Shown piece after piece: positions 4,387-57,300 of a stretch of 64,000 nt of DNA (its first letter is position 1; each line of letters starts with the position of its first letter). Source of the stretch: Candidatus Woesearchaeota archaeon (lineage in GTDB: Archaea; Nanobdellota; Nanobdellia; Woesearchaeales; WJIZ01); assembly GCA_018221205.1 (NCBI GenBank), contig JAAOYF010000046.1, positions 1,999 to 65,998 on the forward strand, written 5' to 3'. Below the pieces are notes generated by a model. That model saw only the letters and a list, made by a program, of their open reading frames with translations, was not told the DNA's origin and made no database searches. Position numbers and translations under genes: made by a program.

Positions 4387-4467
4387 CACTTTTTGAAACG
4401 TAATATTTATATAACAGTTGTGATATTTTTATTACATATGTTCCAAAAAAGTAACAGGTATAAGATT

Positions 4468-4971: not shown

Positions 4972-4972
4972 A

Positions 4973-5377: not shown

Positions 5378-5428
5378 ATGCAGCTATCTCTTACATTATA
5401 GGTAATTTCCTTGTTATTTCTTCTCTTT

Positions 5429-5613: not shown

Positions 5614-5658
5614 GAGTTAGAATAAGTAGAGGCACTATAGTTGGCTAAACGTAAGGGG

Positions 5659-6237
5659 ATGACAGAGAAAACTCCTGTCTTTGCTAATGAGAGTTCTGTT
5701 TTGCAATTAGTCAACTCTGAATCTGATTCTATTACTGAGTCTCTTGCGTTGATTGAGGAGATATCTAAGAAGCATGGAGTAGATATAGGGCATATCACTG
5801 AGATTCTTGAGCACAAGGACAAATACATTGTTCTTCCTGTAGGTTTGTTCAGGAGTAAACTTGGTCCTTTAGAAGCAGTTGTCGGGTATATGAAAGAAGT
5901 TTTGGACCTTAATCTTTCTCAGATTGCACGTTTATTGAACAGAGATGAGACCACCATATGGACAACCTATCAAAATTCTTGGAAAAAAGGGAAGATCATT
6001 GTTGATCTAGAGCTGAAGGATGTTGATTTTGGTGCTTTGAAGATCAAGAAAGAGAACTTTGTTGTTCCCTTATCTGTTTTTGCCAATAGAGAATTGTCTA
6101 TTCTTGAGGCTTTATGTGTGTACTTACGTGAGAATCATGGTCTGAATTATACTATGTTAGGGAAATTGCTAGAGAGAAATGAACGGACTATCTGGACGGT
6201 AGTCAGCAGAGCAAAGAAAAAGTGGACAGAGAGATAG
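5659..6237 (+). CDS. Cassette-1 regulator, a small protein with two tandem sigma-70 region-4 / HTH_10 (Bat-type)-like HTH units
   Basis: Two repeats match L..LE..V.yl.e..gLsy..iA.LL.RdeRTiWT...RAkKK (LGPLEAVVGYMKEVLDLNLSQIARLLNRDETTIWTTYQNSWKKGK and LSILEALCVYLRENHGLNYTMLGKLLERNERTIWTVVSRAKKKW). An AAGGGG motif sits 4 nt upstream of the ATG at 5659, and the ORF track uses a TTG at 5641. Paralogs lie at 36056 and 46478. Confidence 0.6.
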   Translation: MTEKTPVFANESSVLQLVNSESDSITESLALIEEISKKHGVDIGHITEILEHKDKYIVLPVGLFRSKLGPLEAVVGYMKEVLDLNLSQIARLLNRDETTIWTTYQNSWKKGKIIVDLELKDVDFGALKIKKENFVVPLSVFANRELSILEALCVYLRENHGLNYTMLGKLLERNERTIWTVVSRAKKKWTER

Positions 6238-9200
6238 TCAAGCGGATAGTGCAAGAGAGCAAAGAGATGCATGAATGCTCTCGCTCTAAAGTCAAGCTTA
6301 GCTCTAATCTTTTTGCCAATTATGCGAAGAAGAAGAAAGGAAAGATCTCTGAGGAGGAATATGTCGGCTACCTGAAGAAAAAGCATAACGGCCGCACACT
6401 GGATGAATGGATCACTGAAGCGCATAAGCATGGTGAAGAGACGAACAAAGTGTTCCATCAAGATTTCAATTCTTTGGTGAGTTCTTTATCCAGTCCTCGC
6501 TTCACTATGGCTGCGATTATCTTATTGGCCATCTTCTTCCTGCAGTTCTTCACTCCAGGCATCATTGGCTTTGTTACGTTAGAAGAGGCTAATGTGACGA
6601 TTGAGCAAGAGTTTACAGCAAATGCAACGTTTGTTCTTGACGTAAAGAATATCCGCTATCTTGGCTTGCAAGGATATGCAAGCAATGACTTTTCGGGAAG
6701 GGTTTATTTAGATGATGGTGTGCAGAGATATGTTCTTTTAGATTACCTGAGCAAAGAGCTTAGACAAACAGTTCCTGATGCTACAATTGATTTTGAACTG
6801 GTTAAAATAGATATCTCTGATGAAGTGAAGGGCATCGAAGTCCAGGCTGATTTTGATGATGATTCTTTGGCTTGTACAATTTATACCATCGAGAGTGATT
6901 CTGCGACCAATCTTTGTTATGGGTATTCAGGATGCTGCGCATTCATGAATGTTCCTCAGACTGAAGAGCAATGGGATGAGCCTTTGTATGTAAACAAAGG
7001 GAAGTTCGGTGCTGGAGACAGGAATCTGGTGAAAGCACAAGTCGTTTGGGCAAATTATAGTTTAGATCCAGAGAATGCTTATTTTGATCTTGAATATAGT
7101 GATATTATCGGAGTTCCAGTCAATGTCTATTCACAGCTTAGGTTTGTTGATGAATGTGGAGGTGCCTGTTTAATTCAATCTGCTAATCAAGACCATACTT
7201 TAGTTGTTGAAGTGCATTCAGGAAGTTTGTATCTGTCAAATTACAGCTTCAAAGTTGTCGATAAACCGAATAGTCCGCCAGTCTTTACTCCGGTTCCGAA
7301 TATTACTATCAGCCCTCCACGGCCTTTCATCCTGGATTTGAGAGAGTATCTCTCTGATACTGATGGGGATACCTTAAAATTGAGTTATTTCGATTCTCCT
7401 GGATTGATTATTGATTTTGTTGGTATGAATGCTGTCATCCGGGTTGATGATAACTTTACTGGTAGGACTTTTACTTTTTTCACTGCGAATGATTCTGAGT
7501 TGATCGCTATCTCGAATATCATTGAGATTAGTTTAAGTAAGAATGCGACTGTCATTGAGACTCCTAAAAAGGATATCTTTGTTTCTGGACAAGTTGAGAT
7601 CGGCAAGCCTGTTACCTGGAGCCGGAGAGTAGATGTTGCGGATATTTTTGGAGAGTTCAGAGTGAATATCTCTGGGGAAGCGTATAATGTCACGGTCAAG
7701 AAAGTGTTCAATGAGACTTTTGAAGAAGTCTCAGGGGCCAATTTAGAGGTTGTAGAGGATACATTACGTCGAAATATCGCCCGCTTTAAGGAGGATGTTG
7801 CTGATAGGAGGGTTGCTAAGGCATTTGAGAGGCAGCGAGGTATTTTTAGGGATGAACCTATTGATGATGTTGAACTTGTCGTTATGGACCTTTCTCCTGA
7901 GATTGAGATCAGTTTTGAGACTGATGGTCCAGAAGTTGTTGAGGAGATCATCAGTGAGAGTGTGAAGAGAGTTACCATCAGTTCAACTGTGCATTATACT
8001 GATATTCTTTCTTATGCTGATATCAAAGACAGCCCTCAAAGCAGGATTAAGCTCTATTGGTTGGTTAATGGAAGCAGGCAGATTGTTTCTGATGTTACGT
8101 ATGAGGACAGGAACAATAATTCCCTTATTGACAGGATTTATTGGACTGTCCCTTCTCTCAGTTCTCAGACGTATGAGATCATCTTGATCACAAAAGCAGA
8201 TCATCTGGATGCGAATAGGAGCTTTATTGCAGATATCTATGAGTATGTCAAGGAAAAAGATGGTAATTGGAGTTACGGAATCAATGATTCCCAATATGTA
8301 AGAGTGACTTTTGAGCAGGCCTTGGATAATTCCAAGGATATTACTTTATATGCTCGAAGTTTAGGCAGTTCTTCTGTTGAAGTCTATACAGAGAATAATG
8401 ATACTTTGATCACTTCCTTTACTGATATCTCCTCTGAAGACTGGTATAAAGTCTTTTTGACTGAATTAGAAGGAAGCCATGATGTGTTTGACCTTAGAGT
8501 TGTAGGGGATAGTGTTGAGTTCGATTATATTGTCGATCCGGTCGGGCAGGAGAATGTTTCACAGTGGAACAAGACATTCGATGGAACCGGTGGTAGTGAT
8601 ATGGCCAATTCTATCGCTATAGATTCTAACGATAACATCTATGTTGTCGGTGATGGGACTAATATTGTCAGTAGTACGAGCGAGGGTGATTGGTGGATCA
8701 AAAAATTCAACTCCTCAGGCAGCGAAGATACTACTAACTGGAACAAAAGTATTGATGGCGTAACTGGAAAAGATAGTCCCACATTTGTTGCCCTTGATTC
8801 ACAAGACAATGTCTATGTTGTTGGCTATGGTACTAATCTCTCTTCCAGCTCTTCTAATTGGGACTGGTGGATCAAAAAATTCAACTCCTCAGGTAGCGAA
8901 GATACCACCAATTGGAACAAGACGTTTGACGGAGCAGGAAAGGCTGACCAAGCCAGGATAGTTGTCATAGATTCTAATGATAATATGTATGTAGGTGGAA
9001 GTGGATTTAATATTACTGAATCAAATCAAAAAGATTGGTGGATCAAGAAATTCAATTCTTCAGGCAGCGAGGATACTACAAATTGGAACAAATCATTTGA
9101 AAGTTCTGCAGCAACTGATTATCTTCAATCTCTTGCGATAGATAGCAATAACAATCTCTATGCTGGGGGACAGTTTTCACTCGATTTGCTTATCAAAAAA

Positions 9201-12200
9201 TTCAACTCCTCAGGCAGCGAAGATGCTGTCAATTGGAACAAATCTATTGTGGCAGCTACAGGTTCAGCTTTTTACGGTCTGTTCACTGATTCCAACGACA
9301 ATGTCTATGCAGGAATGTCTTCAAATGTCGTCGGTGTCCAGAGCGAGGATGATTGGTGGATCAAGAAATTCAATTCTTCAGGCAGCGAAGATGTTGTTAA
9401 TTGGAACAAAAGCTTTGATGAGGGAACTGCTTGGGCATATGATTATCTTAACTTCATTGCTGTCGACGCAAATGATAATGTTTTCGCTGTTGGGGATATC
9501 GACACTGGCGCAGCAGGCTATAATGATTGGTGGATCAAAAAATTCAACTCCTCAGGCAGCGAAGATGCTGTCAATTGGAACAAGACTTTCAATGCGGGCA
9601 CGAATAAATATGACAGCGCAACAGGTGTTGCCTTTGACAGCTTGAACAATGTCTATGTTTCGGGCTATGGGCAGAATGTTATCAGCGGCACTTCCAGCTA
9701 TGATTGGTGGATCAAGAAGTTTGAAGGTCATCCCATACTTGATACTTCTGCTCCAACTATACTCTTTGTGAACAAGACTGAAGCGAATGGATCCACTATC
9801 ACTGTAAATTATGCTGAGATCAATGTAAGCATCACAGAACTCAATCTGGATGCATTTACCTGGAATTGGAACGGGACGAATTATACGATGTATGATGATA
9901 GCCTGGTGTTGATGCTCAATTTTGACAATGTCTCGGCTCTTGGTGAGAGCAATACATATGTTATTGATGCGAGCAAGCAAAACAATAATGGGCTAGTGTA
10001 TGGAAATGCCTATCCAAATTCTAGTGGAAAATACAGGGGATCATTCGAATTCGGAGGCAGCAGCTCAGATTTTATCAATTTCAGCTCAAATTCAAGCCTT
10101 GATGACCTCAATAACGGAGGATTGACCTTTTCCGCATGGTTATACTTCAGGTCCAGCGGAGGGTTAGACGTCATTTTCAGTAAAGATGCATGGACCAGCG
10201 GATTGATGACGTTTTATATTTCTGATGGAGGAGCCCGAACGCTCCGGTTTATCAAAGATTCTCCGGATCCAGACGTTCGCGCTGACTGGAGCGGAATTAT
10301 CGATCTCGATGAATGGGACCATTATGTGCTTACCTGGAACGGCAGCAACATATCAAGCTCGATTTCGCTCTACAAAAATGGAGCAGAGATTGCGCCATCA
10401 TCAGAGCAAAACGGAAGTGTTCAAACCTGGTCAGATGCAGAGACAGACTTTCTTCTGGGAAGACAGTTCGACGGATTTATGGACGATATCATGCTCTTCA
10501 ATACATCCCTCTCTGCTTCTAAGGCGAAGCAGCTCTATTACTCTAGCCTACAGAAATACGATGCAAACAAATGGGGTTTCTATTCCAATCAAAGCAGTTT
10601 AGCAGATGGCACTTATACTTATCAAGCATATGTGAATGATAGCTTCGGCAAGGCAAATGCTACTGAGTTAAGGACACTCTATGTCGAGGCAGAAGCTCCC
10701 TCAATCAAATTTGTCAATCTTACTGTCGCCAATGGGACTGTGCACATCAAACCACATATCGAGGCGAATGTCTCTATCATCGCAGACGATTTCAGTGATT
10801 TTATCTGGAACTGGAACGGGACCAATTATACGTTCTATGATGATTCATTATCCTTGATGCTCAATTTCGATAATGTTTCTGCTTTAGGAGAGAATGACAG
10901 CCTGGTTGTCGATACCTCTCCTTATGGTAAAAATGGCACTGCCTACGGCAATGCAACACCAAATGTTACTGGCAGGTTCGGAAGAGCATTTTCTTTTGAT
11001 GGTGATGGAGACTATGTTTCTATGGGAACATCGAGTGTCTATAATTTCACTAATGCATCCAATATCACGATTTTGGTATGGGTTTACGCTTATTCTTTGC
11101 CAAGCTATGGGGAGATCATCAACAAGGGCAATACAGAACCAGGCTCTACCAGACAGAATTATGCTATTCAGAGCCAGGATCAGAATATCTCTTTTTTCTA
11201 TCGAGATAGTGCTAATACTGCTTGGGTGGAATATGTGACAGATGCTAGTGTGCTCTCGACAGGATCTTGGCATCATATCGCCATCACTTACAAATTCGGC
11301 ACAGGAAGCTCTGCTAAGATATACGTCAATGGAGCTGAGACATCTGCAACCTGGAGTGGAGGAACAGGCAATGAGGATCCTATGCAAAATGATGAAGAGC
11401 TCTGGATTGGTGCAGTTGATAATGGTGGTGATGACGTGATAGATGAGGAGTGGACTGGGAGAATAGATGGGGTGCGTATGTATAACCGAAGCCTATCATC
11501 GTCAGAAGTCCAACAACATTATTTCTCTAATCTTCGGAAGTATGACACTGATAAATGGAGTTTCTATTCCAATCAGACCAACCTCACCTTAGGCACCTAT
11601 ACGTTCCAGGCATATGCGAATGATACGTATGATAATCCCAATGCGACTGAATTAAGGACGGTTGAGTATAGGGTGAATCCTTATTATGGGAAATTCAGCC
11701 TTCCTCCGACAACCCACTTTAATGTCTCTGCTGATCTTTCGAATATATGTAATGCCACTTTAGCCATCAATGCTATTGGCATGATTGAGTGGAATAATTG
11801 TGTTGATGCGCGGATTGCTAATTTTGATACGTATGTCAATCTTAGTTTCAACAAAGTAAGTGTTGATCCAGTTAATTTAGACTCAAGCTTCAATAGTTCT
11901 GCTAATATTACTCTCTTTTACGTTAATCTTACTAATCCTATCATCCAAAAAGATGGTGCCTATTGTCCTAGCTGTATCATCTTAAACAATGATGGAAATA
12001 ATATCACGTTCAATGCGAGTTCTTTCTCTTCTTATTCTGCTACTGAGAGAACTAATCTTTCAATCTGGGACCTTTCTGATTCACAGACAAGCTATGCTAA
12101 TTTCACCCAGTTCTATGCGAATTATACGAATGCATCAGGTACGATAATTACTACTGGCTATTGTGAGTTCAGACATAATAAGACAGGAAGATGGGCTGCT

Positions 12201-42970: not shown

Positions 42971-43192
42971 ATGGACGAAAATGTATCGAGGAAAGCAGTT
43001 CTTGTTCTTGTTATCATTGCAGTTGTGGTAAGCATATTCAGCACAACTCTCGTATTAAATGCAGTCTATGATTATCAACCACCTGCACAACAGGATTATG
43101 GCGCACCACTCGGTAGAGTAGTGCTTTCTGTGCCTGGTGATCCATCAGGCACGGGCAAGGTCGTGCTATCAGTTCCGGAGGAGGAAAAATGA
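42971..43192 (+). CDS. Small membrane-anchored protein (N-terminal TM)
   Basis: MDENVSRKAVLVLVIIAVVVSIFSTTLVLNA then GRVVLSVPGDPSGTGKVVLSVPEE. It shares the R-x-L-[ST]-V-P-G motif with the next ORF. Confidence 0.4.
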   Translation: MDENVSRKAVLVLVIIAVVVSIFSTTLVLNAVYDYQPPAQQDYGAPLGRVVLSVPGDPSGTGKVVLSVPEEEK

Positions 43193-43854
43193 GAGAACTT
43201 TCAAATTCAAGTTTAGCATTAATGGTTGTACTGGCAATTGTCATCTCAGCGTTCGGCACCTTCATGAGCATGAGCAAGCTCAGTGAGATAGGGGGAGCTG
43301 TCGGTTTGACAGGATTCGCGACAACCGATACAGGAAGAGCTAACCTGACTGTTCCAGGGGGAGCATTCATCGTTGTCTTTGATGATGAGATAGACCTTCA
43401 TGTAATCCAGATCAATAAGACCAATGCCAGCGGCTATGGTGTCAATTGGGTCGATGATTGGTGGAGAATACAGAATGATGGCGGAGTGAACTTCAGCGTC
43501 GAAGTCTATATCGATGTCGCAAGCGGTCAACTTTCAGGATCAGGTACTTATTCAGGACAGAGAGGATGGGGCCCATTCAATTCGACAACAAGTGTCGCTA
43601 CAGGATGTGTGGATCCAACCGAGGTTTTACATACTTGTTTCCGAGTCAAATGTAACAGCACAGACTCTGGTGATCAATGCAATAATACCTATTATTCAAT
43701 CTATAATAAATCAGGACAGGCTGTTTTGCTCAATGATCTGAGCTATATCGATGGGAGCGACATCGCCAGCTTCGGTATCAATGCGACTGTCCCTCCTGGC
43801 GAACCTGCAGGGACAAAAATCCAGTTTGTCACGTTCGAAGCAGCAGAATCATAA
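43189..43854 (+). CDS. Membrane-anchored secreted protein of unknown function (N-terminal TM)
   Basis: MRELSNSSLALMVVLAIVISAFGTF then GRANLTVPGGAFIVVFDD. Beta-rich with N-x-S/T sequons. Its start overlaps the stop of the previous ORF. Confidence 0.45.
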   Translation: MRELSNSSLALMVVLAIVISAFGTFMSMSKLSEIGGAVGLTGFATTDTGRANLTVPGGAFIVVFDDEIDLHVIQINKTNASGYGVNWVDDWWRIQNDGGVNFSVEVYIDVASGQLSGSGTYSGQRGWGPFNSTTSVATGCVDPTEVLHTCFRVKCNSTDSGDQCNNTYYSIYNKSGQAVLLNDLSYIDGSDIASFGINATVPPGEPAGTKIQFVTFEAAES

Positions 43855-46411: not shown

Positions 46412-46484
46412 GTTTACTCATATATATTTACTTTAGGGTAATATTTATAAATAGATATACTTATATGTATATACTAGATGCCTA
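46412..46484 (+). promoter_or_regulatory. Degenerate TACTTA...TAGG motif copies upstream of, and overlapping, the cassette-3 regulator start
   Basis: TTTACTCATATATATTTACTTTAGGGTAATA and ATACTTATATGTATATACTAGATGCCTAGG, the latter spanning the ATG at 46478. Confidence 0.45.
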
Positions 46485-46951
46485 GGAATCTGAGAAAAGA
46501 CAAGCGTTTTCTGCAAATTAGAGAGCTTTTAGAGCAGCTTGAGAAGGATTATGGGATAAGTAAAAAGGAGATTCTTGAGATTTCTGAAGACATCCTGATT
46601 CCGGTCTCGCTTTATTCTTCTGGATTGAGCTCTCTGGAGATCATTGTCAAATATCTGAAGGAGGGCAAGCAGTTTTCTCTTTCAACAATCGCGAAGCTTA
46701 CTGGTAGAAGCAAGCAAGGAGTATGGCAGTCTCTTTCACATGCCCGTAAGAAGCATCCTAAAGCATTCGTTTCTGATGCATCGCCTTATGATTTTCCTGT
46801 TTCCATAATCTCAGACAAGAAACACTCTGTTCTTGAGTCTATTGTCGTGCACCTCAAGGAAGCACATAGCTTGAGCTATGCACAGATTGCTAGACTGTTG
46901 AACAGGGATCAACGAACAGTGTGGACTGTATACAACAAAGTGAAGAAATGA
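46478..46951 (+). CDS. Cassette-3 regulator with tandem sigma-70 r4 / HTH_10-like HTH units
   Basis: LSSLEIIVKYLKEGKQFSLSTIAKLTGRSKQGVWQSLSHARKK and HSVLESIVVHLKEAHSLSYAQIARLLNRDQRTVWTVYNKVKK. Confidence 0.65.
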   Translation: MPRNLRKDKRFLQIRELLEQLEKDYGISKKEILEISEDILIPVSLYSSGLSSLEIIVKYLKEGKQFSLSTIAKLTGRSKQGVWQSLSHARKKHPKAFVSDASPYDFPVSIISDKKHSVLESIVVHLKEAHSLSYAQIARLLNRDQRTVWTVYNKVKK

Positions 46952-48075
46952 GCTCAACTGAAAGATTGCGGACGGAGAAAGAGCAGCTGCAAGAGAGCAT
47001 CATGAAGTGTGAACAATATCTCACTCAACTGGATCAGCGGCTCAATACCCTCACCAAGCAACTCGAGAATAAAGAGATAGATGAGCTTAGCTATACCATG
47101 CTCACCTCTACTTCACTAGGTGGACGGTCGTTCGGGCACTATATCTATCACTATGAAGACCTTATCAAGGGCTATCAGGAAAGGATAGCTAAGATAGATA
47201 AGAAGGTCAAGCATAAAAATACGACAGTCATCAGTGTTGCGGCTATCTTTGTTGCTATCATGCTCTCGAGCCTCTTCCTTAATTCAGATATCACTGGCCA
47301 GATCACTTTCAGCGTCATCGAGGCGCTTTCAGATCCTATCGAAAGGGAGTTCAATGAGAGTGTGAGAGTACCCTTAGATAATACGCAGGCCCTGAATACG
47401 TTCACCATGACCGGAAAGTATAATGGAACAGGGTTCTTGCGTATCTATCTTGATTCTCCGCGACAGTCTTACTTAGTGTACGGTACAGATGATCCTTCAA
47501 CATTCAAGGATGAATGCGGACAGGCCTGTTATCTGCAGCCCGAGGACAACTATACGCTGAGGATACAGCTTTCAGGACAAGGAAGCGTAAAAATTGAGAA
47601 AGTTACGTATCTCTTCTCTGAATTGAGAGAATTCACTCTCGAGCCAGAGGTGGCGATCCATAATCTGACAGACAATAGGTTCATCAAGGGCAGCTTTGAC
47701 CTTGTATCAAAGAGGGGAAGAGACTTCAGTGTTGCGCTCTATGGTGAGGGGCAGTTAGCAGATTATCTCACCCTCTACACTTCTTATGCAGACTTCAGGT
47801 CAAGTCCAGAACAGAAGATATCCTATGATCTTGATCTGCCGCTGCAGATGGCACCAGGTACGTATACCAGCAAGATTATCGTCAAATACCTGCCAAAAGA
47901 CAAGTTCTCTGGCAAGACTCCTGAAGAGGTGCATGATATTGTCGTCAATATAAGGGGGAGGGAAGAAGCAGCAGAGGAAGGCTCCTACCTCTCCATACTC
48001 TTCACTATCCTTATCGCTCTTTTCGGTATCAATCTGATCTATTTCCTCTATCGGAAGCTCTTTCTTAAAAAATAG
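46948..48075 (+). CDS. Ig-like membrane protein with a cytoplasmic coiled-coil N-terminus, an N-terminal TM with post-TM DITG motif, and a C-terminal TM plus basic tail (paralog of 34664 and 43863)
   Basis: ATGA overlap with the regulator stop (46948-46951), and the ORF track starts at 46921. VISVAAIFVAIMLSSLFLNSDITGQITF, GQLADYLTLYTSYADF (cf. GELAEYIGIKDSLMTV in the 34664 ORF) and C-terminal SILFTILIALFGINLIYFLYRKLFLKK. Confidence 0.6.
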   Translation: MSSTERLRTEKEQLQESIMKCEQYLTQLDQRLNTLTKQLENKEIDELSYTMLTSTSLGGRSFGHYIYHYEDLIKGYQERIAKIDKKVKHKNTTVISVAAIFVAIMLSSLFLNSDITGQITFSVIEALSDPIEREFNESVRVPLDNTQALNTFTMTGKYNGTGFLRIYLDSPRQSYLVYGTDDPSTFKDECGQACYLQPEDNYTLRIQLSGQGSVKIEKVTYLFSELREFTLEPEVAIHNLTDNRFIKGSFDLVSKRGRDFSVALYGEGQLADYLTLYTSYADFRSSPEQKISYDLDLPLQMAPGTYTSKIIVKYLPKDKFSGKTPEEVHDIVVNIRGREEAAEEGSYLSILFTILIALFGINLIYFLYRKLFLKK

Positions 48076-48328: not shown

Positions 48329-51300
48329 GGCTAAGAAGTTCGTCGAAGAAGCTTTAGATAGAGGCCACTCTCTCAAAGATATCAAACTAGTGATGGATAA
48401 GAGAGGATACTCGCGGCAGGAAATCAAACAGGTTGTGCAAGAGTATGAGCATCCGTGGAAAATATCAAACAATACTCTTGCAGTCTTTGTCATTGTGCTA
48501 GCGCTCGGCTCTCTTCTGGGGAATTATTATCTTCTACAATCAATGGAAGCTCCTGAGCCAGAGGTAACAGCTATGGTCAGCATAGCCCGCGCCACTTTCT
48601 GCGTGAATGCGGGACCTACCATCAATACATCAGACTGCAATGCTACTGCCTCAGTCAATACTCCTTATGACTGTGAAATAAATGCCACTGATACAGATAT
48701 CGGAACAGCGTATAATTTTACTGACAATACAACCCTTTTTGATATCAATTCAACAACAGGAGAGATCAATTTCACCCCCACAATCGGAGATATCGGCAGT
48801 TATCACATCAATTTCAGTGTTTTTGACGGCAGCGGCTGCAGCAATGAGTATATATCGAGCATATTCAACCTGACCATCTCGTTGGATTGCGGCAGCAAAC
48901 AAGCCCCTCAATTCACTGACCTTGGAACAACATATAATTTCTCAAGAAAGGAGAATCTCTCGCTCTATATCAACGCAAGTGATCCTGATAATGATAGCAT
49001 CACTATCAATGCCGAATTAGTGAGTTCCAACGCTTACACACCGTTCAATGTCTCGGAAATCCTCAATGGCAACTGGATCAATTTCACTCCCACCATAGCA
49101 CATGTCGGCTGGCACCTGTTCAATATCTCGGTAACAGATAACAGCAGCTGCCAGAATGACACGAGCTGGCAGCTTGTCAATGTCACTGTCTGGGCCAATA
49201 ATTCCGCTCCTCAATATATCGGCTCATCAGGAGATCTAGATTATACGCTGAATGAAGATACCACTGTCAATAATGTCTATAATCTAGACGACTATTTCAA
49301 CGATTCAGATGGAGACTGCCTGAAATATGAGATATCCTATTCAGTAGCCAACCCAATCCTCAATATCGTTGTCAACAACAATGATGATCCACGCGACCTG
49401 AGCAGCTGCCCTTCAGACCATCTGGTGACGCTTATACCTTCTCCAAATCAATTCGGCACTGTGATAGCATTCATCATCGCCAATGACACGTTAAATGTCT
49501 CTGAAATTGTCACGGTCACCTTCACTATCCTCAATGTGGCTGAAGTGATCAGCTTACCTACTCCTAGCAGCGGAGGCGGTGGAGGAGGACCGACGCTGAA
49601 CTTATGTAACGAGCGATGGACCTGTACACCATGGAACCAGAGCGAATGCGTCAATGGATTCATGACCAGGGAATGTGATGATCTCAATGACTGCCACACC
49701 ACGAAGTTCCAGCCGAATGAGACAAAGATATGCCAATATATCGACCACTGCAGTGATGGTGTGAAGAATTTTGATGAGGATGGAGTGGACTGCGGCGGGT
49801 CATGTCAGGCAAGCTGCTCGACCTGTTTCGATGCAGTCATGAACTGCCATAAATTAGTGAATGGAACACAGATCTGTGAAGAAGGTGTGGACTGTGGCGG
49901 ACTTTGTCAGGCCTGTTCATTAGCAGATCTAGTGGGCAAGATCGATCTGGAAAAGGAGCCTTTGAGCCCGACCCAGCAGACCTTCAGATGGCTCATGTTT
50001 TGGATCCTCCTTTTCATCGTATTGGCAATTCTCACCTATTGGACTATCAAGAAGATGCAGCCGCCGAAAAAGAAGAGCGAGCAAGAAGAGGTCAAGAAAT
50101 TCAGCGCACTCTGGTGGCTGAGACTGATACAGCGCCATAGACAGGATGTACGGACGACCCAGCTTGAGCTTATGGCAAGACCGAGCAAACTCACCCTGTT
50201 CTGGGAGAAGGCTACCTTCTTCTGGCCGCGGAAGGCACCGGATTACATCCCAAACCTTGATCAGAAAATCAAAACTCTGCGGAAGAAGGTGAGCAAGAAT
50301 GATAATGAGCATGTCGCCAAGAAGCTTGGAGAGTACATGAAGCTCTGGCTTGCCCATGACTTCAACATAGAATATTCAGCAACTTATGAAGAATTGAGCC
50401 AGGAGATGAGAGAACGGAAGAAGAAAGAGCTTATCCATGGCAAGATTGAACCGTTCTTCGATGATCTGGTGAAAGCAGAGTTCAGCGGACGGCAGATAGC
50501 TGACAAGAAGATGAGAAGTCTTATCACCACCGCCTTGTCTATCATGACCTTCAGGCCCAAGCCGAGGAGGCAGACCCCTGTTGTCGCGAGCATCGTGGTC
50601 ATCCTTGCTTTATTGGGAGCTATGTTCCTGCAGCCTGATATCACTGGATTATTCACGTTTACCCAAGAGCAAAGCATCGATGTCTTTATGCAATTCAATG
50701 CATCTGGCACGCTGCCATTGGATATTATCGGTGCTGACAGCATCAGCATAGACGGCTGGATATCGCAGGATGCAGAGATATATATCTACGCCGGAGACAG
50801 CATTGTCCTGGACAGCTCGTTGCTGAAAAAAGGAAAGACACCGACCAGAACCGATGTCAAGATCCCCTTTACAGAAGGAATAAAGCAGATAGATGCGAAG
50901 ATCGATTATGGGGACAGTGCATGGGATCCTGACAATGACGGCGTGGAACCTATTGAAAATGCTGTCGATGTCAGTGTCAAAGGAAGCCTGTTCAACGGAA
51001 TCGATGATAAGGGCAAGCTCTGTACCTTATGGGAGATCGAGAATGATGCAAAAAGCTTCATCTGCAACGGCAATGTTGACTGCTGCGCACTTCTTGAGAC
51101 CCTTCCTGAAAACGATGAGTGGGACGAGCCTTTATTCTTGAGTTATGGCAAACACGGCGCGAAAGAGGAAAACATTGTCTGGGCAAGGATATATTATATA
51201 AATTACAACCTTGATCCAGAAAATGCCTATTCAGAGATTGTCGAGTCTGAACAGGAATCTATCAGCGTCTACTTCGAGCCCTCAACTATAGGCTTCGAGA

Positions 51301-54300
51301 AAGAATGCGTCGAAAGCTGCTCTTTCACCTTTGATCGGAAAGAGTTGAAGATAGAACTCATGAAAGGAGAGCTATTCATCGAAAAAGTCCATTATGGCAA
51401 GCGTATAAATGCACCTCCCCTGGTAAGGGCACTTCCGAATATCAGCTCTGACATCAACAAGGAGATCATCATCAATCTCAAGGATTACATAGAAGATGCT
51501 GAGAACGATTCTTTGAGCTATGCGATAACAGGCCTCAGAGATTTCATCATCGCCTATGAAGGAGATCTTCTGCGTATCACTCCTCCTGAGGATTATGAAG
51601 GACAATCTACAGTATTCATCATCGCCAATGACTCTACTTCTATCGGTGTCTCTAATCTCTTTGATATCACTGTAAGGAAGATCTTGGAGGAAACTGTCCA
51701 AGAGAAAGCTGAAGTCGGCAAGCCGGTGAAATGGATCAAGAAAGTGCATGCTTACAACAAGTCAATCATCAAGCTTGATCACGTCCCCATGAACGTCACT
51801 GTACAAGGCATTGAAGGCCTCTCAAAGAGGACACTGCACAAGATCACTGTCAAAGACCAAGATCGATTCATCCCGCTCCAAAATTATCTGCGAGCACCTC
51901 AAGTTGTCGGTGTGGCAGCTGCTGAGGATGACCTCCTCCCTGCTGAACTCATGATAGATGAAGATATCCAAGAAATCGAGATAGAGTATTATACAGAAGC
52001 GCCTGAATTGATCGAAGAAGAAGTGACGACATCACTCAAGAAAGTGGTCATCAGTTCTCCTGTCCATTATGAGAACATCACTGCCTTTACTGCTATCGAT
52101 GACAAGCCTCGTTCTGCCATCCATCTCTTCAGGACAACTGACGGCATACGGGAGAAAGTCAGTTTCGAGGCATTTGATGAGAATGCCAACGGTCTGATCG
52201 ATAAGATAGAATGGATTGTCCCGCACCTGAGCAACCAGACTTATGAAGTGGAGATCTCGGTATTGAATGTGCAGAGCTATCCTACTGTCGGAGGGATATG
52301 GGAGGTACGATTCAACACCACAGGCAAGGCAAACCTGACGATAAGCGCGATCAATAACACACTCTACGGAAGCTCGTTGCCGAATGATCTCCTCCCTGAT
52401 GAGCTGCAATGCGGCTTCACTGATCTGAACTATACATGGGAGGGCAATGATGTCACCTACAATGATTATGAATGCAACCAGACAGGATATTGGAAGGTCA
52501 TTGTTCTGACTGAAGGGGTCCATAACCAGCAGTTCACTTTCGGTGATGCTGTCGCGTATGCAAACAATCTCGCAAGCGTGAACGGCACAGGCGGGAATCT
52601 GACTGTCTGGGACGACTCCGACTTAGGAGAGGTCTTTGCTACAGACAATGTCACGTTCTCTGTCAACTATACCAACGGATTCCAGATATCAAATGGCACA
52701 TGCGAAGTCGAGTTCAATCTCACCGGCAGCTATCAGAACAAGACGAATATGACCTATAATGGGGTAGCGTCTCCCTGGACCTACAACAGAAGTATCCCTT
52801 ACAAAGGCACGAGCTATTTCCATGTCATCTGCCAGAATGCGACCATGCCGACACTCAATGTGACAGACAGTGTCTACATCAACAATACCTCACCTACCTT
52901 CAATAAATCCGCAGGCAAGCTTCCTTCTCTCGTTTGTGTCGAGGATACACCCTGCGAATACAATATGAGCAAATATGTCATCGATCCAGACCTTAATGAT
53001 GATTTCACTTTTGACTACGGTGCTTTATCGATACGAAACCTTACCGAGCATCCGGACTGCAGCAATTGCTGGGTATTCAATTTCGATCATGGTAAGTTTA
53101 TCGTCAATGTCACCACCTCTGACCATGCTAATCAGACGCCTTGGAGCCCTGTCGTGAGTGTCCTTGATTCTGATGGGGGCTCTGATTCTGCTACTGTTGA
53201 TATCTCAATGAGTGAGGTGAATGATTATCCAGTCTTCACTAATCCATCTGGGATAAGCCTCACTGATGCGACTGCAGAATCTGTCTATAATTATGATGTC
53301 GATGCGACAGATGAAGAAGATATCACGACAACAGATTATAATTTCACCATACTCAGCTGCCAGCAGGTGTATCTTTCAGACTGCTCTGCACTGAACGTCA
53401 GCATCAACAGGACAACAGGCATTATCTCAGGAACGCCCGGAACGTTTGATCCCGGTAACTATACACTTAATCTGAGCACCACTGATAATGATACTGCTAT
53501 AACCTGGAAGCTAGTCAATCTGTCTGTCATCGATGTCAATAACGCGCCTGTCTTTGATCTTGTCTGCGCCGGCTCCCGGTCTGCCCTTGAAGACAGCGCA
53601 TTCAATTGCACGATCAATGCATCTGACGCTGATGCCGATCCTTTGACCTTCGGTTCCAATTACAGTTGGTTCACTCTTGATAGCACTGGAGCGAGAAGCG
53701 TCTTAGCGAACTTCACCCCGACCAATGCAGAAGTCGGCAATTATACCATCAAGCTGAATGTGACTGACGGATTGCTGACAACAAGCACGTTCATCAATTT
53801 CTCGGTGAACAATACAAATGATGTCCCTTATATGCTTAACATCACCAATCAGCTGGCTGTTGTCAACATCGACTTCAGGAGGAATGTAAGCGGGCATGAC
53901 GATGACCTGTATCAGCCCTATAATATCTTCAACGCAGTCGGGGATACGTTGAGCTTCACCATCAACCTCAGTTTTATGAGCATCACGAAAATCAACGCTA
54001 CTTCGGCGACGATGAATTTCACTCCAGCATCAGGCCAGGAAGGGAACTACTCTGTCCTGGTCAATGTCTCAGACAACGCAGGAACGTATGGCATCACCAC
54101 ATTCAATCTGACCATCAGGAACAACACTGCCCCTATCATCAAATGGATCTGTGACAATGACAGGATCATCCAGGAGGAGGAAGTATTCAAATGCTGGGTG
54201 AATGCCACTGATATCGATGGAGACAATTTCACGTTCTCGACGAACGGCACGTGGTTCAATATCAATGCAACATCTGGAAATGTCAGTATGATCCTCAATG

Positions 54301-57300
54301 ACAGCGATGTGGGCAATTACACCATCAGGTTCACGGCGACAGATTCCTGGGGAAGCTCAAGCCTCAACGACACCAATTTCACTGTCAATAACACACCTGA
54401 ATTCCCCTATATGTTCATCCCAAACATCAATGCGACACAGAACGAGACCTTGCTGTATAATCTCAGCGCAAATGTGACAGATGAGGACCAGAATACGATC
54501 TTCGGTGATATACTCCATTTCTATTCAAATGGAAGCTTCTCGGGGAACTTCTCTGTTAATGAATTGACTGGCTTGATGAATTTCACCCCTGACGGGTCAG
54601 ATGGAGGAATTTTCTATCTGAACATCACAGTAAATGACAGCGCGGGATTAATAAGCACACAGACGATCATCCTCACTGTCGAATTGATCAATTACCCACC
54701 TGAACTGGACACTATCTGCGACAACCTGACCAGCGCCAGGGAAGATGTATTCTTCAGCTGCACAGTCAATGCTACAGATGCCAACCCTAGCGATAATCTC
54801 ACTTTCAATGTGAGCATCATCGGAGGAGGCAGTTGGTTCAACATCAATGCATCAGGATATGTGAACTTCACCCCGATTAATGCGAATGTCGGCAACCATA
54901 CCCTCAACTTCACTGTCTATGATGGAGTGCTCTGGGATTATCGACTCATCAATTTCTCAGTGAACAACACAAATGACGCCCCTGTGTTTGATGCCAATCC
55001 GAATCTTAATGGGACAGAAGACATTCTTTTCAACTATACGCTGAATGTGAGCGATGACGATTTATCAGTGCCTGTAGGTGAGAACCTTTCCTATTTCTCG
55101 AACAGCACGTTCTTTACTGTCAATCAATCTACCGGACAGATTGTTTTCATACCGAACAGCAGCCAGGTCGGGAATTATTCTATCAAGTTCAATGTCTCAG
55201 ACCTGAACGGAAGCTTTGATACCCTTATCAGAAACTTCACCATCAGTTTCTATGATGACTTCCCTGTATTGCAATTCATACCCAATCTCATCGTCGAGGA
55301 ATTATCGCAGCTGTATCATGACGTCAACGCGACTGACGAGGAAGATGCTGAAAACCTGCTGAGATTCAGGACCAACGCCTCTGCTGCCCTTTTTGTCATC
55401 AATGTGCTTACTGGAGAGATCAATTTCACTGCGAATGCATCACAGGCAGGCATACATCATATCAACTTAACGGTCAACGATACTATAGGCAGAGAGACCT
55501 CTCAAGTGTTCAACCTGACGGTCACCTTATTCAATTTCGATCCCAATATCACTACAGTCTATCCTTATGGAACCCCTAAAGTGAGCTATACTGAATTCTC
55601 GTTCGCCAACAGATCAGATTTTCCGACCAATATCACCTCGATCAACCTTGCGGAAAATAATACCTATCTCTTCAATGTCTCTATCCAAGACGGCAATGGC
55701 GATAACATCAACTACAGTTGGTATAAGAATGGGACGCTTGTCTACAGTTCGAACGAAACATCGAGCTTCAACTATTCAGTGGGCCTGACAGATGAGGGAT
55801 TGCGGAACATCACCGTGATCATCTCAGACGGTCGTGGAGGCACTGACAGATTCAGCTGGAATGCGACAGTGAACAATTCAAACAGAAAGCCCTTATTCGG
55901 TGTGAAGGAATATGATGAAGAATCAGAGTTTTCCGGAACAGAGAATGACACCAATGTCACATCTGGAGGCATCATCCTTGCTGTCAACGGCAGCGTATTC
56001 GCCAATGCCGGCGATTATGTCTCCCTATCTATCGATATGGGTGCATTGGTGAGCAGTTTCTATAATCCTATCGGCTATACGACGATTGAGTGGGTCGCAA
56101 CCACCCCCGCAGACACGAGTGTCACAGCACAGACACGGACTTCTGACAATGGTGTGAGCTGGGGCAACTGGAGTTCCCCTTACAGCTCGGGATCGAGGAT
56201 CACCTCAACGAACACGACTTATATCCAGTATAAGCTGAATTACCAGACGAACAATACTGCTTCAACTCCAAATGTCACGACTGTACGCATCAGACATATC
56301 ATCCCTGATCTGCTCGCTGACCAGGGAGATACCAATCCAAACTGGATTGACCTTGATGATTATTTCATTGATATCGATACTGAAGATACACTACAATTCA
56401 CAGTGACGGGCTACACCAATATCCAATTTTCTATCAGCAGCAGTACCCATGTCGTCGGTATCACCATCCCCAACACGGCGACAGGCGAAGAGGTCATCTA
56501 TTTCACTGTAAATGACTCGTATGATACTGAAGTGAGCAATAATATCACGATAACCATCAATGAAACACCCCAGCAATCTGCTGTTGAAATCGTGACTGTC
56601 ACCACCACTAAGAGCAAGACCGTCATTAAATTCAGGCCTCGGGATGTTGAAGTGTATGAACCACTGCAGATCCTTGTGCCTCAGCATCTGACGAGTTTTG
56701 ATGATGAGACCATGGTGGCTCCGATCAAGCTTTCGAATATGGGGGAATCACTGCTGACCGGCATAACTTTATCTGCCGGTACCAATGCTGAAGGAGTGGA
56801 ATTATGGTTCAGCCGGAATACCTTCGACAGTCTCAGTCCAGGAACAGAATTTGAAACTGACCTTTTCATGAGATGGACAGGCCTTATTGCAGAATTTGAC
56901 GTCATCGTCAATGCAACCTCGATTGACCCTGTCTTCACTGATTCTGCCATTGTCTCGGTAACAGGCATCAAGCGTGTCGAGAGCAACCGCAGTATCGTCG
57001 AGGACCATATCTCTTTTGTTCGCGATCTCCTTGCGAATAATCCACGCTGTCTGGAGTTGAATGAGCTGGTTGAAGAATCAGAGAAGGCATTAGCGGCAGG
57101 CGACCTGACGAAAGCACGGAACCTCTGGAACTTTGTGATCAATGGTTGCCGAACCTTATTGGAATCTGTGCAGGACGTTGAACAATCCACACCCATTCAG
57201 CAGAGAGAAGGAGATTTGTTCAAGATCGTCTCAGGAGTACTGCTCTTGCTGCTGTTCATCACTGCAATCATCATCCTGGCACTTGCAAGAAGAAAGAAAT

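What the first reader, a model, noticed from the sequence alone, without database searches (positions are those of the whole stretch)
6780..8200. Novel conserved N-terminal domain block and post-TM D-I-T-G motif shared by giant-1, giant-3 and a 384-aa paralog
About 450 aa following the signal-anchor helix are collinear between giant-1 (6780-8200) and giant-3 (50700-52280). The shared block includes a Cys-pair motif CCAFMNVPQ/CCALLETLP, WDEPL(Y/F) and YxLDPENAY. In all three proteins (giant-1, giant-3 and the 46948 ORF) the TM helix is followed within ~5 residues by (P/S)(D/G)I(T/I)G.(I/F)TF. This may be a family-specific membrane-proximal stalk or a processing/sorting signal. It is not a class-III (pilin-like) signal, because the hydrophobic segment precedes rather than follows the motif.
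Basis: seen in the sequence. Interest (0 to 1): 0.55.

Follow-up and report, generated by a model that had tools for sequence, protein, structure and literature searches.

The report
Membrane-proximal base of archaeal giant proteins
Two giant surface proteins and a small paralog of an uncultured Woesearchaeota (DPANN) archaeon share a real, unannotated membrane-proximal domain block, and the short I-T-G-F/Y motif after their membrane helix proves to be a lineage-wide motif of secreted proteins whose function is unknown and may be processing or docking.

Summary
Giant-1 and giant-3 align over about 740 columns (27% identity, E=7e-67). Profiles extend the shared block to about 750 aa.

The block is a chain of beta-sandwich domains. 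D1 carries a nested insert (D2) with six invariant cysteines. Then come a cadherin/Big_9-like Ig domain and three more modules. Only the Ig part matches Pfam. NCBIfam, PDB sequences and Foldseek against the PDB find nothing specific.

The block is not an orphan. An exhaustive profile search finds 393 cluster representatives at E<=1e-30, and every named one is Woesearchaeota, Nanoarchaeia or 'archaeon'.

The motif is [ILF]-[TIV]-G-[FY]-[AVI]-[TVI], with G in 95% of members. It sits 6 residues after a ~17-residue hydrophobic helix, in a segment AlphaFold2 leaves unstructured. It is not family-specific:
- It follows both outward-directed helices of giant-3-like proteins.
- It recurs up to three more times in interdomain linkers of relatives.
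- It occurs in unrelated secreted proteins.

I read it as an extracellular linear recognition motif, most likely a cleavage site (about 0.4). An uncleaved hinge (about 0.3) and a docking strand remain open. A paralogous double-HTH regulator gene precedes these genes.

The parts
5641..6237 (+). Double-HTH (sigma-70 region-4-like) regulator gene. It overlaps the start of giant-1 by 16 nt.
   Evidence: Pfam Sigma70_r4_2 at 1.4e-6. Paralogs lie at 36056-36610 and 46478-46951, and upstream of relatives in L001, L002 and L007.
6222..6500 (+). Giant-1 N-terminal cytoplasmic domain (aa 1-93) with the conserved motif GKIS...Y...L.....GR...EWI.
   Evidence: Shared with P0001, P0003, P0039, P0151, P0152, P0013, P0031, P0058 and the 384-aa ORF. 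No Pfam hit.
6501..6551 (+). Giant-1 hydrophobic export helix (aa 94-110).
   Evidence: AF2 predicts a helix at block residues 3-20. The family hydrophobic run has a median of 17 aa.
6552..6578 (+). Giant-1 post-helix motif T-P-G-I-I-G-F-V-T (family consensus P-x-[ILF]-[TIV]-G-[FY]-[VIA]-[TVI]).
   Evidence: Logo over 93 members: P 73%, T 71%, G 95%, F/Y 83%. pLDDT is below 50 at block residues 22-28.
6573..6767 (+). Module 1, the N-terminal strands of beta-sandwich D1.
   Evidence: AF2 pLDDT 93.7 and pTM 0.84 for D1+D2. Also present in the 384-aa ORF.
6780..7124 (+). D2, a disulfide-rich domain nested in D1. It holds the motifs LC.G..(D/G)CC, WDEPLY and Y.LDPENAY. Boundaries are approximate.
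   Evidence: Invariant C129, C143, G145, C149, C150 and N179. D2 is absent from the 384-aa ORF and from P0152. Best Foldseek PDB hit E=0.047.
7134..7268 (+). Closing strands of D1, including F.DECGGAC.
   Evidence: C223 and C227 are invariant or nearly so. Aligns with the 384-aa ORF FKDECGQAC.
7272..7538 (+). Cadherin/Big_9-like Ig domain.
   Evidence: Profile positions ~250-360 match tandem Ig repeats in other proteins. Big_9 or Cadherin_5 hits occur in 9 and 4 of 39 members.
7566..7775 (+). Module 3, a beta-sandwich that starts with EIGKPV.W.
   Evidence: AF2 strands at block residues 362-429. Conserved G372 K373 P374 V375 W377.
7776..7868 (+). Variable helical linker. In most relatives this position carries two further ITGYAV copies around an amphipathic helix LLTRFFEWLF. 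Both copies are lost in giant-1.
   Evidence: AF2 helix at block residues 430-449. Linker copies in relatives.
7869..8201 (+). Module 4, a beta-sandwich with ISS.VHY...LID.I.W.VP.LS.QTYE.
8202..8798 (+).
   Evidence: The A3 profile aligns giant-1 aa 103-859 and giant-3 aa 762-1494.
46478..46951 (+). HTH regulator paralog upstream of the 384-aa ORF.
46921..48075 (+). 384-aa paralog. In order: cytoplasmic coiled-coil, helix (47227-47280), motif NSDITGQIT (47281-47307), D1 without D2, a second beta domain, and a C-terminal membrane helix (47986-48051).
48474..48581 (+). Giant-3 first membrane helix (aa 55-75), followed by the degenerate motif copy PEVTAMVS (aa 83-90).
   Evidence: Orthologs P0005, P0007 and P0017 carry AITGKAS, QVTGMAT and AVTGMNS at this place.
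50577..50657 (+). Giant-3 third membrane helix (aa 756-773) and motif QPDITGLFT (aa 774-782).
50595..52793 (+). Giant-3 copy of the block (aa 762-1494).
57225..57284 (+). Giant-3 C-terminal membrane anchor, followed by RRKKSM.
   Evidence: The same feature is in P0005, P0007 and P0017.
43189..43854 (+). Unrelated 221-aa secreted or membrane protein. It has an N-terminal helix, a spacer and the same motif, GLTGFATTDTG (LTGFAT at 43306-43323).
   Evidence: The motif is conserved in homologs P0158 and P0159 and in a paralog in L008.

Best explanation
Shown (about 0.9): the block is the conserved membrane-proximal base of a large, unannotated family of Woesearchaeota/Nanoarchaeia (DPANN) surface proteins. 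An export-initiating hydrophobic helix of about 17 residues, with its N-terminus inside the cell, is followed by a 6-9 residue motif. After the motif comes a rigid chain of beta-sandwich domains. D1 carries a nested insert (D2) with six invariant cysteines. A cadherin/Big_9-like Ig domain and three more modules follow. Lineage-specific adhesive arrays (LamG domains, beta-helices, propeller-like repeats, Ig domains) are grafted onto this base.

Inferred: the base acts as a stalk that holds the variable part away from the membrane.

Inferred (about 0.6 for any recognition role): the motif x-[ILF]-[TIV]-G-[FY]-[AVI]-[TVI] is not part of the fold. It is an extracellular linear recognition motif common to secreted proteins of this lineage.

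The single mechanism I consider most likely (about 0.4) is endoproteolytic maturation, with G at P1, an aromatic residue at P1' and a beta-branched residue at P2. Either a dedicated peptidase acts at all copies, or a Sec11-type signal peptidase acts at the post-helix copy only. Cleavage would free the ectodomain from the helix and nick long proteins at domain boundaries.

A translationally coupled double-HTH gene upstream probably controls transcription of each cassette.
For: Family and architecture:
- Pairwise E=7e-67.
- The profile search finds 4268, 2095 and 393 cluster representatives at E<=1e-3, 1e-10 and 1e-30.
- The modules appear in the same order in relatives.
- AF2 gives mean pLDDT 84.8 for 571 aa, and 93.7 with pTM 0.84 for D1+D2.
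- Named members are all Woesearchaeota, Nanoarchaeia or 'archaeon'.
- No Pfam, NCBIfam or PDB match exists beyond Ig-like.

Motif as a recognition element:
- G is kept in 95% of 93 members of a family with about 25% overall identity, and the only replacements are S and A.
- AF2 leaves the motif unstructured (pLDDT below 50) between a confident helix and a confident first strand.
- It occurs 271 times in 154 family proteins, against 35 in shuffled sequences.
- Extra copies lie after module 1 (40 of 90 members) and in the linker before module 4 (two copies in 26 of 53, one in 14 of 53). These copies are flanked by polar low-complexity sequence.
- Both outward-going helices of giant-3-like proteins carry the motif, and the inward-going helix does not.
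- It is present in unrelated secreted proteins: the 221-aa family, a 305-aa protein in L005, and a LamG giant in L004 with no block hit.

Geometry compatible with cleavage: basic residues precede the helix, the helix is 15-18 residues long, Pro sits at -5, a hydrophobic residue at -3, and G/S/A at -1, 6 residues after the helix.

HTH linkage.
Against: - There is no direct evidence of cleavage.
- Giant-1 has no other membrane anchor, and only 4 of 90 representatives end in a membrane helix. Constitutive cleavage would therefore release most of these proteins. Many representatives are truncated at contig ends, so this count is soft.
- Conserved cytoplasmic domains precede the helix in many members. 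This is easier to explain if the helix stays attached.
- Internal copies B and C are not next to a hydrophobic helix. In the small proteins the motif lies 11-14 residues beyond the helix. The L005 protein has a canonical ISA|G site upstream of the motif. Signal peptidase I therefore cannot explain all copies.
- F or Y occupies -3 in about 19% of members, which is atypical for signal peptidase I.
- No peptidase gene is linked to the cassettes in the loci examined.
- The beta-branched/Gly/aromatic pattern is also what a short beta-strand after a helix cap would look like.
Confidence: 0.45

Rival explanations
1. Uncleaved signal anchor with a structural junction. The helix stays as the only membrane anchor. 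The motif is a helix-terminating Gly hinge plus the start of a beta-strand at the membrane surface. Internal copies are the same 'helix stop, strand start' element reused at other helix-to-domain junctions. Nothing recognises it.
For: - Every copy follows a helix or closes a domain.
- T is freely replaced by I, V or L, and the pattern is beta-strand-like.
- Giant-1 and most members have no other anchor.
- Conserved cytoplasmic domains are fused to the helix.
- No unknown enzyme is required.
Against: - AF2 does not place the motif in the fold (pLDDT below 50).
- The same six-residue motif occurs in unrelated families and inside disordered polar linkers. This is unusual for a purely structural element.
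- Copy B follows a loop, not a helix.
- The hydrophobic run (median 17 residues) is short for a stable anchor.
Confidence: 0.3
2. Docking strand. The motif is a short beta-strand that pairs by beta-augmentation. The partner is either another copy in the same protein (A with B around module 1, C with D around the amphipathic helix) or a common partner such as an S-layer protein or a fibre subunit of the 221-aa family (donor-strand-like).
For: - The copies come in bracketing pairs.
- The 221-aa proteins carry a single copy at the start of a beta-rich domain. They sit in a conserved operon with a signal-peptide plus C-terminal-anchor protein.
- The motif is a hydrophobic island within polar linkers.
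Against: - The giant-1/giant-3 clade keeps only copy A, so intramolecular pairing cannot be essential.
- No partner has been identified.
Confidence: 0.15
3. Ordinary Sec signal peptide. The post-helix copy is simply the c-region of a cleavable signal, cut by Sec11-type signal peptidase I after I-T-G. The other copies are coincidental.
For: - Basic n-region, a helix of 15-18 residues, Pro at -5, and G/S/A at -1 exactly 6 residues after the helix.
- The giant-3 first helix has A in place of G.
- Giant-3 and the 384-aa ORF have C-terminal anchors, like type I membrane proteins.
- A Sec11-like peptidase gene is present in a related genome (L004 3703-4308).
Against: - Conservation extends to +1 through +3, and the same six-residue motif recurs where no membrane helix is present.
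- The motif is 11-14 residues from the helix in the small proteins, and lies downstream of a canonical ISA|G site in L005.
- Classical A-x-A-type signals coexist in the same genomes.
- In giant-1 93 residues precede the helix, and in giant-3 755 residues.
- An aromatic residue sits at -3 in about 19% of members.
Confidence: 0.15

Closest known systems
Sec-type cleavable signal peptide / archaeal Sec11 (SipW-like) signal peptidase I site
   Same: Basic residues, then a hydrophobic helix of 15-18 residues, then a 6-residue c-region with Pro at -5 and a small residue (G, S or A) at -1.
   Different: The motif is conserved through +3 and has a large hydrophobic or aromatic residue at -3. It can lie hundreds of residues into the protein. 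It also recurs in linkers with no membrane helix. Canonical A-x-A signals coexist in the same genomes.
Bacterial lipobox [LVI][ASTVI][GAS]|C
   Same: Positions -3 to -1 ([ILF]-[TIV]-[GSA]) fit the lipobox pattern, at the same distance from the helix.
   Different: Position +1 is F or Y and never Cys, so lipid modification of Cys is impossible.
LPXTG/sortase and PGF-CTERM/archaeosortase sorting signals
   Same: A short lineage-wide motif containing T-G or G-F, next to a membrane helix and basic residues, shared by unrelated surface proteins.
   Different: Those signals are C-terminal, with the motif before the helix. Here the order is reversed and N-terminal or internal. The spacing is P-x-x-T-G rather than P-x-T-G, and T is replaced by I, V or L in about 29% of members.
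SipW-cognate signal of TasA/camelysin-like proteins (TIGR04088; recalled from memory)
   Same: The small 221-aa proteins read h-region...TGFAT(T/N)DTG..N.TV. This loosely resembles h-region...GT.A.FSDTE..N.F.
   Different: No NCBIfam hit at E<=1. The order of T and G differs. Relatedness is untested.
ECF sigma / anti-sigma gene pairs
   Same: A small sigma-70 region-4-like HTH gene is translationally coupled to a downstream gene. That gene encodes a protein with a cytoplasmic N-domain, one helix and a large outside domain.
   Different: The HTH protein has two region-4-like repeats and no region 2. Archaea do not use sigma factors. The same HTH also precedes giant-2 and P0011, which have no cytoplasmic domain.
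Ig-like domain arrays of giant adhesins (Big_9, cadherin-like); dystroglycan juxtamembrane Ig + SEA-like module
   Same: One domain of the block is Big_9/cadherin-like. The best Foldseek matches of the whole block are multi-Ig ectodomains, and dystroglycan matches at probability 1.0 over 116-172 columns.
   Different: TM-scores are 0.1-0.2. D1/D2 have no match at E<0.04. There is no G|S/T/C autoproteolysis motif.

Membership tests
Cleavable Sec signal peptide (signal peptidase I substrate) | Basic n-region, hydrophobic h-region, and a c-region of about 5-7 residues. | tested here: met
   The hydrophobic run has a median of 17 residues (IQR 15-18). The conserved G lies 6 residues after its end, and K/R residues lie upstream.
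Cleavable Sec signal peptide (signal peptidase I substrate) | Small uncharged residues at both -1 and -3. | tested here: inconclusive
   Position -1 is G 88, S 4 and A 1 of 93. Position -3 is I 46, L 11, F 11, Y 7 and M 4, so it is aliphatic or aromatic rather than small.
Cleavable Sec signal peptide (signal peptidase I substrate) | Located at the N-terminus of the precursor. | tested here: not met
   The helix starts at aa 94 in giant-1, aa 756 in giant-3 and aa 103 in the 384-aa ORF. It is N-terminal in many relatives.
Cleavable Sec signal peptide (signal peptidase I substrate) | Actual cleavage. | not testable with these tools
   Needs N-terminal proteomics.
Class III (type IV pilin-like) signal peptide | A [KR]-[GAS] cleavage site directly before the hydrophobic helix. 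| tested here: not met
   The motif follows the helix. The residues before the helix are SPR-F, RRQT-P and KNTT-V.
Lipoprotein lipobox | Invariant Cys at +1. | tested here: not met
   Position +1 is F 50, Y 27, L 8 and V 4, with no C.
LPXTG sortase signal | L-P-x-T-G followed by a C-terminal hydrophobic helix and a basic tail, with T essential. | tested here: not met
   The order is reversed, the spacing is P-x-x-T-G, and T is present in only 71% of members.
PGF-CTERM / archaeosortase signal | C-terminal P-G-F, then a helix, then a basic tail. | tested here: not met
   The motif is N-terminal or internal and follows the helix. The giant-3 C-terminus has no PGF.
SEA/GAIN-type autoproteolytic juxtamembrane module | Cleavage before a Ser, Thr or Cys nucleophile within a folded domain. 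| tested here: not met
   The residue after G is aromatic. The T before G is replaced by I, V or L in about 29% of members. The motif lies outside the fold in the AF2 models.
Pfam Big_9 / Cadherin_5 Ig-like domain (block residues ~262-350) | A match to the Pfam model at or above the gathering score. | tested here: inconclusive
   No hit for the window's copy. Nine and four of 39 relatives hit at E<=0.01. The fold is Ig-like by AF2 and Foldseek.
Any Pfam-A / NCBIfam family for D1, D2 and modules 3-5 | A sequence match at E<=0.01-0.1. | tested here: not met
   A profile search of PDB sequences gave a best E of 0.22.
ECF sigma / anti-sigma pair | A sigma factor with regions 2 and 4, and an anti-sigma domain in the cytoplasmic part of the partner. 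| tested here: not met
   Only region-4-like HTH hits, present twice per protein. No anti-sigma domain hit.
SipW-cognate signal (TIGR04088), for the 221-aa ORF | A match to the NCBIfam model. | tested here: not met
   No hit at E<=1. Short models are easily lost by HMMER's filters, so this is a weak negative.

The most novel reading that the evidence does not exclude
The motif x-[ILF]-[TIV]-G-[FY]-[AV]-[TVI] is a previously undescribed sorting or processing signal of Woesearchaeota/Nanoarchaeia. An as yet unknown extracellular or membrane-bound peptidase or transpeptidase would read it. It would mark the exoplasmic end of every export helix and several interdomain linkers. Giant surface proteins would then be matured like polyproteins, and small subunits released from their N-terminal helices. 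In cassettes that have a cytoplasmic domain and an HTH partner, cleavage could be regulated and couple host attachment to transcription.
Probability: 0.25. Interest if true: 0.8.

Novelty: new variant of a known kind. Interest (0 to 1): 0.5.

Why it matters
DPANN archaea such as Woesearchaeota are uncultured, probably host-dependent cells. Their giant surface proteins are the main candidates for host attachment, yet almost none of their sequence is annotated.

This work defines a common ~750-aa base with a confident AF2 model, a nested insert with six invariant cysteines, and a dedicated HTH partner gene. That gives a handle for classifying hundreds of these genes.

A six-residue motif shared by unrelated secreted proteins of the lineage is the kind of signature that has in other lineages revealed sorting machineries, such as the lipobox, LPXTG and PGF-CTERM. 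It makes a concrete prediction that existing metaproteomes can test, namely neo-N-termini that begin right after I-T-G.

Tried and rejected
Searches that led nowhere:
- The word-indexed homolog search found only 1 relative with the block as query and 6 with the 22-sequence alignment A3. This would wrongly suggest an orphan. The exhaustive profile search corrected it.
- Pfam, NCBIfam and PDB sequence searches found no assignment beyond Ig-like.
- Foldseek against the PDB gave only generic multi-Ig matches for the 571-aa model (TM-score 0.1-0.2). For D1+D2 nothing scored below E=0.047.
- tRNA and Rfam scans of the window were empty.
- A full-text search for the motif strings and three topic searches found no description.
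- The genome-collection scan with the 22-sequence alignment failed for lack of conserved stretches. With the 3-sequence alignment it gave two archaeal MAGs.
- An exact look-up of the window's MoxR protein found no record.

Ideas rejected:
- Class III signal: the order of motif and helix is wrong.
- Lipobox: there is no Cys.
- Sortase or archaeosortase signals: the order and spacing are wrong, and T is not essential.
- SEA/GAIN-like autoproteolysis: there is no nucleophile at +1.
- Rhomboid recognition motif: P4 is not hydrophobic.
- The HTH as a sequestered anti-sigma-type partner in general: it also precedes giant-2 and P0011, which lack a cytoplasmic domain.
Full report
WHAT IS IN THE WINDOW

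The window carries three very large plus-strand ORFs:
- giant-1, 6222-33725, 9167 aa
- giant-2, 36607-42864, 2085 aa
- giant-3, 48312-57308, 2998 aa

It also carries a 384-aa ORF at 46921-48075. A 221-aa ORF at 43189-43854 is 100% identical to 'hypothetical protein GOV09_05760 [Candidatus Woesearchaeota archaeon]' on a 75-kb NCBI contig. The giant-3 ortholog P0005, from a Woesearchaeota MAG, has the same downstream genes: a 202-aa minus-strand ORF, then MoxR, DUF58 and VWA/BatA. The window is therefore DPANN archaeal DNA.

CHECK OF THE OBSERVATION

BLASTP aligns giant-1 aa 99-792 with giant-3 aa ~811-1480 at E=7e-67, with 27% identity over 739 columns. All the quoted strings are present: CCAFMNVPQ/CCALLETLP, WDEPL[YF] and Y.LDPENAY. 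So is the motif after the hydrophobic helix: PGIIGFVTL in giant-1, PDITGLFTF in giant-3 and SDITGQITF in the 384-aa ORF.

The 384-aa ORF matches pairwise only weakly (E=1e-5 and 2e-4). It matches a 22-sequence family profile at E=3.4e-15, through module 1 and the closing strands F.DECG.AC.

Four corrections are needed:
- The helix and motif lie at 6501-6578, upstream of the stated start.
- The shared block runs for about 750 aa, to about nt 8798 in giant-1 and 52793 in giant-3.
- In giant-3 the helix is the third membrane helix, at aa 756-773. It follows an N-terminal cytoplasmic stretch, a first helix (aa 55-75), a ~480-aa Ig-like and Cys-rich ectodomain, a second helix (aa 562-579) and a K/R-rich cytoplasmic loop.

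ANATOMY OF THE BLOCK

AlphaFold2 on giant-1 aa 90-660 with 22 homologs gives mean pLDDT 84.8. The model shows:
- a helix at block residues 3-20
- an unstructured segment at residues 22-28, which is the motif, with pLDDT below 50
- a chain of beta-sandwich domains, interrupted by one long helix at residues 430-449

A second model of residues 25-262 with 39 homologs gives pLDDT 93.7 and pTM 0.84.

Comparison with relatives shows that D1 is discontinuous. It consists of module 1 plus the closing strands. The Cys-rich D2 is nested inside it, because the 384-aa ORF and P0152 have D1 without D2. Six cysteines are invariant or nearly so in 22-39 members: C129, C143, C149, C150, C223 and C227 in block numbering.

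After D1/D2 come a cadherin/Big_9-like Ig domain (profile positions ~250-360, which occurs in tandem in other proteins), module 3 (EIGKPV.W...), a variable linker, module 4 (ISS.VHY...LID.I.W.VP.LS.QTYE) and module 5.

IS IT A KNOWN DOMAIN?

- Pfam found nothing for either copy of the block, apart from one sub-threshold chance hit (Tea_mid, E=0.0013) on giant-1. Across 39 relatives it found only Big_9 or Cadherin_5 on the Ig part.
- NCBIfam found nothing.
- A profile search of PDB sequences gave a best E of 0.22.
- Foldseek against the PDB gave generic multi-Ig ectodomains for the whole block (E~1e-4, TM-score 0.1-0.2), with dystroglycan's juxtamembrane Ig/SEA-like module at probability 1.0.
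- For D1+D2 the best Foldseek hit had E=0.047.

IS IT AN ORPHAN?

No. The word-indexed search found one relative. The exhaustive profile search found 4268, 2095 and 393 cluster representatives at E<=1e-3, 1e-10 and 1e-30. Of the best 150, 90 start with helix, motif and module 1. Some of the remainder match only through Ig repeats.

Every member that carries a name is from Woesearchaeota, Nanoarchaeota/Nanoarchaeia or 'archaeon', and is labelled hypothetical or LamG-domain protein. One genome hit is labelled Methanosarcinales MAG. Downstream of the block the proteins diverge into LamG domains, beta-helices and Ig arrays. The block is therefore the constant base of a variable family.

THE MOTIF

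Aligned over 93 members, the region reads as follows:
- a hydrophobic run, median 17 residues (IQR 15-18)
- [KENG]
- P (73%)
- [SAG]
- [ILF]
- T (71%, otherwise I, V or L)
- G (95%, otherwise S or A)
- [FY] (83%)
- [VIA]
- [TVI]

The G lies 6 residues after the hydrophobic run. It is one of the most conserved positions in a family whose mean identity is about 25%. Yet it sits in the one segment that AF2 cannot place.

(i) Relatives carry extra copies. One lies after module 1, in an insertion followed by polar low-complexity linker (...YLIFDS..L...G...ITGLAV; 40 of 90 members). This insertion is absent from the giant-1 clade. Two more lie in the linker before module 4...INKELLELQNERNkLTGYAV, then 6-8 residues, then kGlLTRFFEWLFnvEITGYAV.E. 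Both are present in 26 of 53 members, one in 14 and none in 13. Giant-1 has lost them. Giant-3 keeps a remnant, QVVGVAAAED. Overall the motif occurs 271 times in 154 family proteins, against 35 in shuffled sequences.

(ii) In giant-3-like proteins both outward-directed helices are followed by the motif. The inward-directed helix is followed by K/R residues:
- P0005: AITGKAS and PEITGLL
- P0007: QVTGMAT and PEITGRF
- P0017: AVTGMNS and APLTGFL
- window giant-3: PEVTAMV and PDITGLF

(iii) The motif occurs in unrelated secreted proteins:
- The window's 221-aa ORF has helix, spacer and GLTGFATTDTG. Its homologs keep it at 47-51% identity: GITGFATT, VFTGFATNDTG and QITGFATNDTG.
- A 305-aa protein in L005 reads ISAGFFDEIYSKITGKATSD.
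- A LamG giant in L004 reads GPRILGFVTL and has no block hit.

Proteins with classical A-x-A-type signals coexist in the same loci, including giant-2.

WHAT THE MOTIF IS NOT

- It is not a class III signal, because the order of motif and helix is wrong.
- It is not a lipobox. Positions -3 to -1 fit, but +1 is never Cys.
- It is not an LPXTG or PGF-CTERM signal. The order is reversed, the spacing differs, and T is dispensable.
- It is not an SEA/GAIN-type autoproteolysis site, because there is no nucleophile after G.

The free exchange of T for I, V or L also argues against T being a modified or catalytic residue.

WHAT THE MOTIF MOST LIKELY IS

One function should explain all of the contexts. 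The motif is always extracellular. It usually follows a helix (membrane-spanning, amphipathic or polar). It lies in flexible or polar surroundings, and it occurs across unrelated families.

My ranking is:
- Linear recognition motif: about 0.6.
- Proteolytic maturation, within that: about 0.4. This is the single most likely mechanism. G would be P1, the aromatic residue P1' and the beta-branched residue P2.
- Uncleaved structural hinge: about 0.3.
- Docking strand that binds by beta-augmentation: about 0.15.

The post-helix copy has textbook signal-peptide geometry: a basic n-region, a short h-region, Pro at -5 and a small residue at -1. Signal peptidase I alone (about 0.15) cannot account for three things:
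- the conservation of +1 to +3
- the linker copies
- the 11-14-residue spacing in the small proteins, one of which has a canonical site upstream of the motif

Against any constitutive cleavage:
- Giant-1 has no other anchor.
- Only 4 of 90 representatives end in a membrane helix. Many are truncated, so the count is soft.
- Conserved cytoplasmic domains are fused to the helix in many members.

Giant-3 and the 384-aa ORF do have C-terminal anchors.

None of this is direct evidence. The question can be settled by N-terminal proteomics.

GENE CONTEXT

Giant-1, giant-2 and the 384-aa ORF are each preceded by a paralogous protein of 157-198 aa. It is built of two sigma-70 region-4-like HTH repeats, and its gene overlaps the start of the downstream gene.

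The same gene precedes relatives in L001, L002 and L007, as a single repeat in L007. In L005 it lies at the C-terminal end of the P0152 ORF, directly before the 305-aa motif protein. It is absent upstream of the block genes in L003, L004 and L006.

Because it also precedes genes that have no cytoplasmic domain, I read it as a dedicated transcription factor rather than an anti-sigma-type partner.

VERDICT

The block is a real, confidently folding, unannotated base module of a large Woesearchaeal surface-protein family. That makes it a new domain family within a known kind of protein.

The motif is the more interesting part. It is a lineage-wide extracellular signature of unknown function. I found no description of it in the full-text library searched.

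Noticed in passing
window 5641-6237, 36056-36610, 46478-46951; L001 587-1180; L002 3896-4447; L007 2018-2308; L005 within 2533-8241 (aa 1778-1898 of P0152): A family of small proteins built of two sigma-70 region-4-like HTH repeats (one repeat in L007). The gene is translationally coupled to the start of large surface-protein genes, including giant-2, which lacks the block.
   Followed up: partly
window 43189-46308; L008 9986-13001: A conserved operon. It encodes a 221-237-aa protein with an N-terminal helix (AIVIS..GTF, pilin-like in appearance) and a TGFAT(T/N)DTG motif. Next come a ~390-aa protein with a classical signal peptide (…IGISP/GVAPS…) and a C-terminal anchor, a 137-aa membrane protein, and in L008 a second TGFAT paralog and a SpoIIM-like gene. 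It could be a fibre or pilus-like assembly system.
   Followed up: partly
window 57300-57908 (-); L006 11500-12108 (-): A 202-aa cytoplasmic helical protein, conserved next to giant-3 orthologs. It shares the segment (I/V)RYQYTFEEL...LEYS with the cytoplasmic loop of giant-3-like proteins, and it ends in a G(F/Y)...EKI...L motif like the extreme N-terminus of giant-3. MoxR, DUF58 and VWA/BatA follow in both loci.
   Followed up: partly
window 6222-6500 and 46921-47226; P0001, P0151, P0152 N-termini: A conserved cytoplasmic motif, GKIS...Y...L.....GR...EWI..Y, lies upstream of the export helix in many family members. A second class (..YI.E.L..GYSL..IKK.L...G) occurs in others and at the N-terminus of giant-3. 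Neither has a Pfam match.
   Followed up: partly
L001 3039-3041: P0001 ends at an in-frame stop inside the variable linker. Module 4 continues in the same frame after it, so this is a sequencing error, a pseudogene or a split gene.
   Followed up: no
window 33712-34686: A 324-aa ORF that overlaps the end of giant-1. It has an odd Ser/Leu/Phe/Asn-rich composition and no family hit, so it is probably not a real gene. The next ORF, 34664-35875, has a signal peptide, a CARDB-like region and a C-terminal anchor, and resembles the ORF at 43863-45041.
   Followed up: no
window 45484-46308: A 274-aa protein with a lipobox-like N-terminus (LLVIIAC) and a Cys-rich region. This is notable because the enzymes that make archaeal lipoproteins are poorly known.
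   Followed up: no
window ~8600-9221 and beyond (giant-1 aa ~790 onward): Tandem repeats of about 55 aa (..WNK.FDG....D.A..I.IDS.DN.YV.G.......S...DWWIKKFNSSGSEDTT) that look like beta-propeller blades begin right after the block.
   Followed up: no
window 180-4971: Two apiosidase-like glycoside hydrolase ORFs (180-2297), then nucleotidyltransferase ORFs at 3005-3658 and 4393-4971. A wHTH is fused to the latter, and a separate weak wHTH ORF lies at 2388-3008. Similar NTase/HEPN pairs flank the family gene in L004.
   Followed up: no
[not shown]
   Followed up: yes
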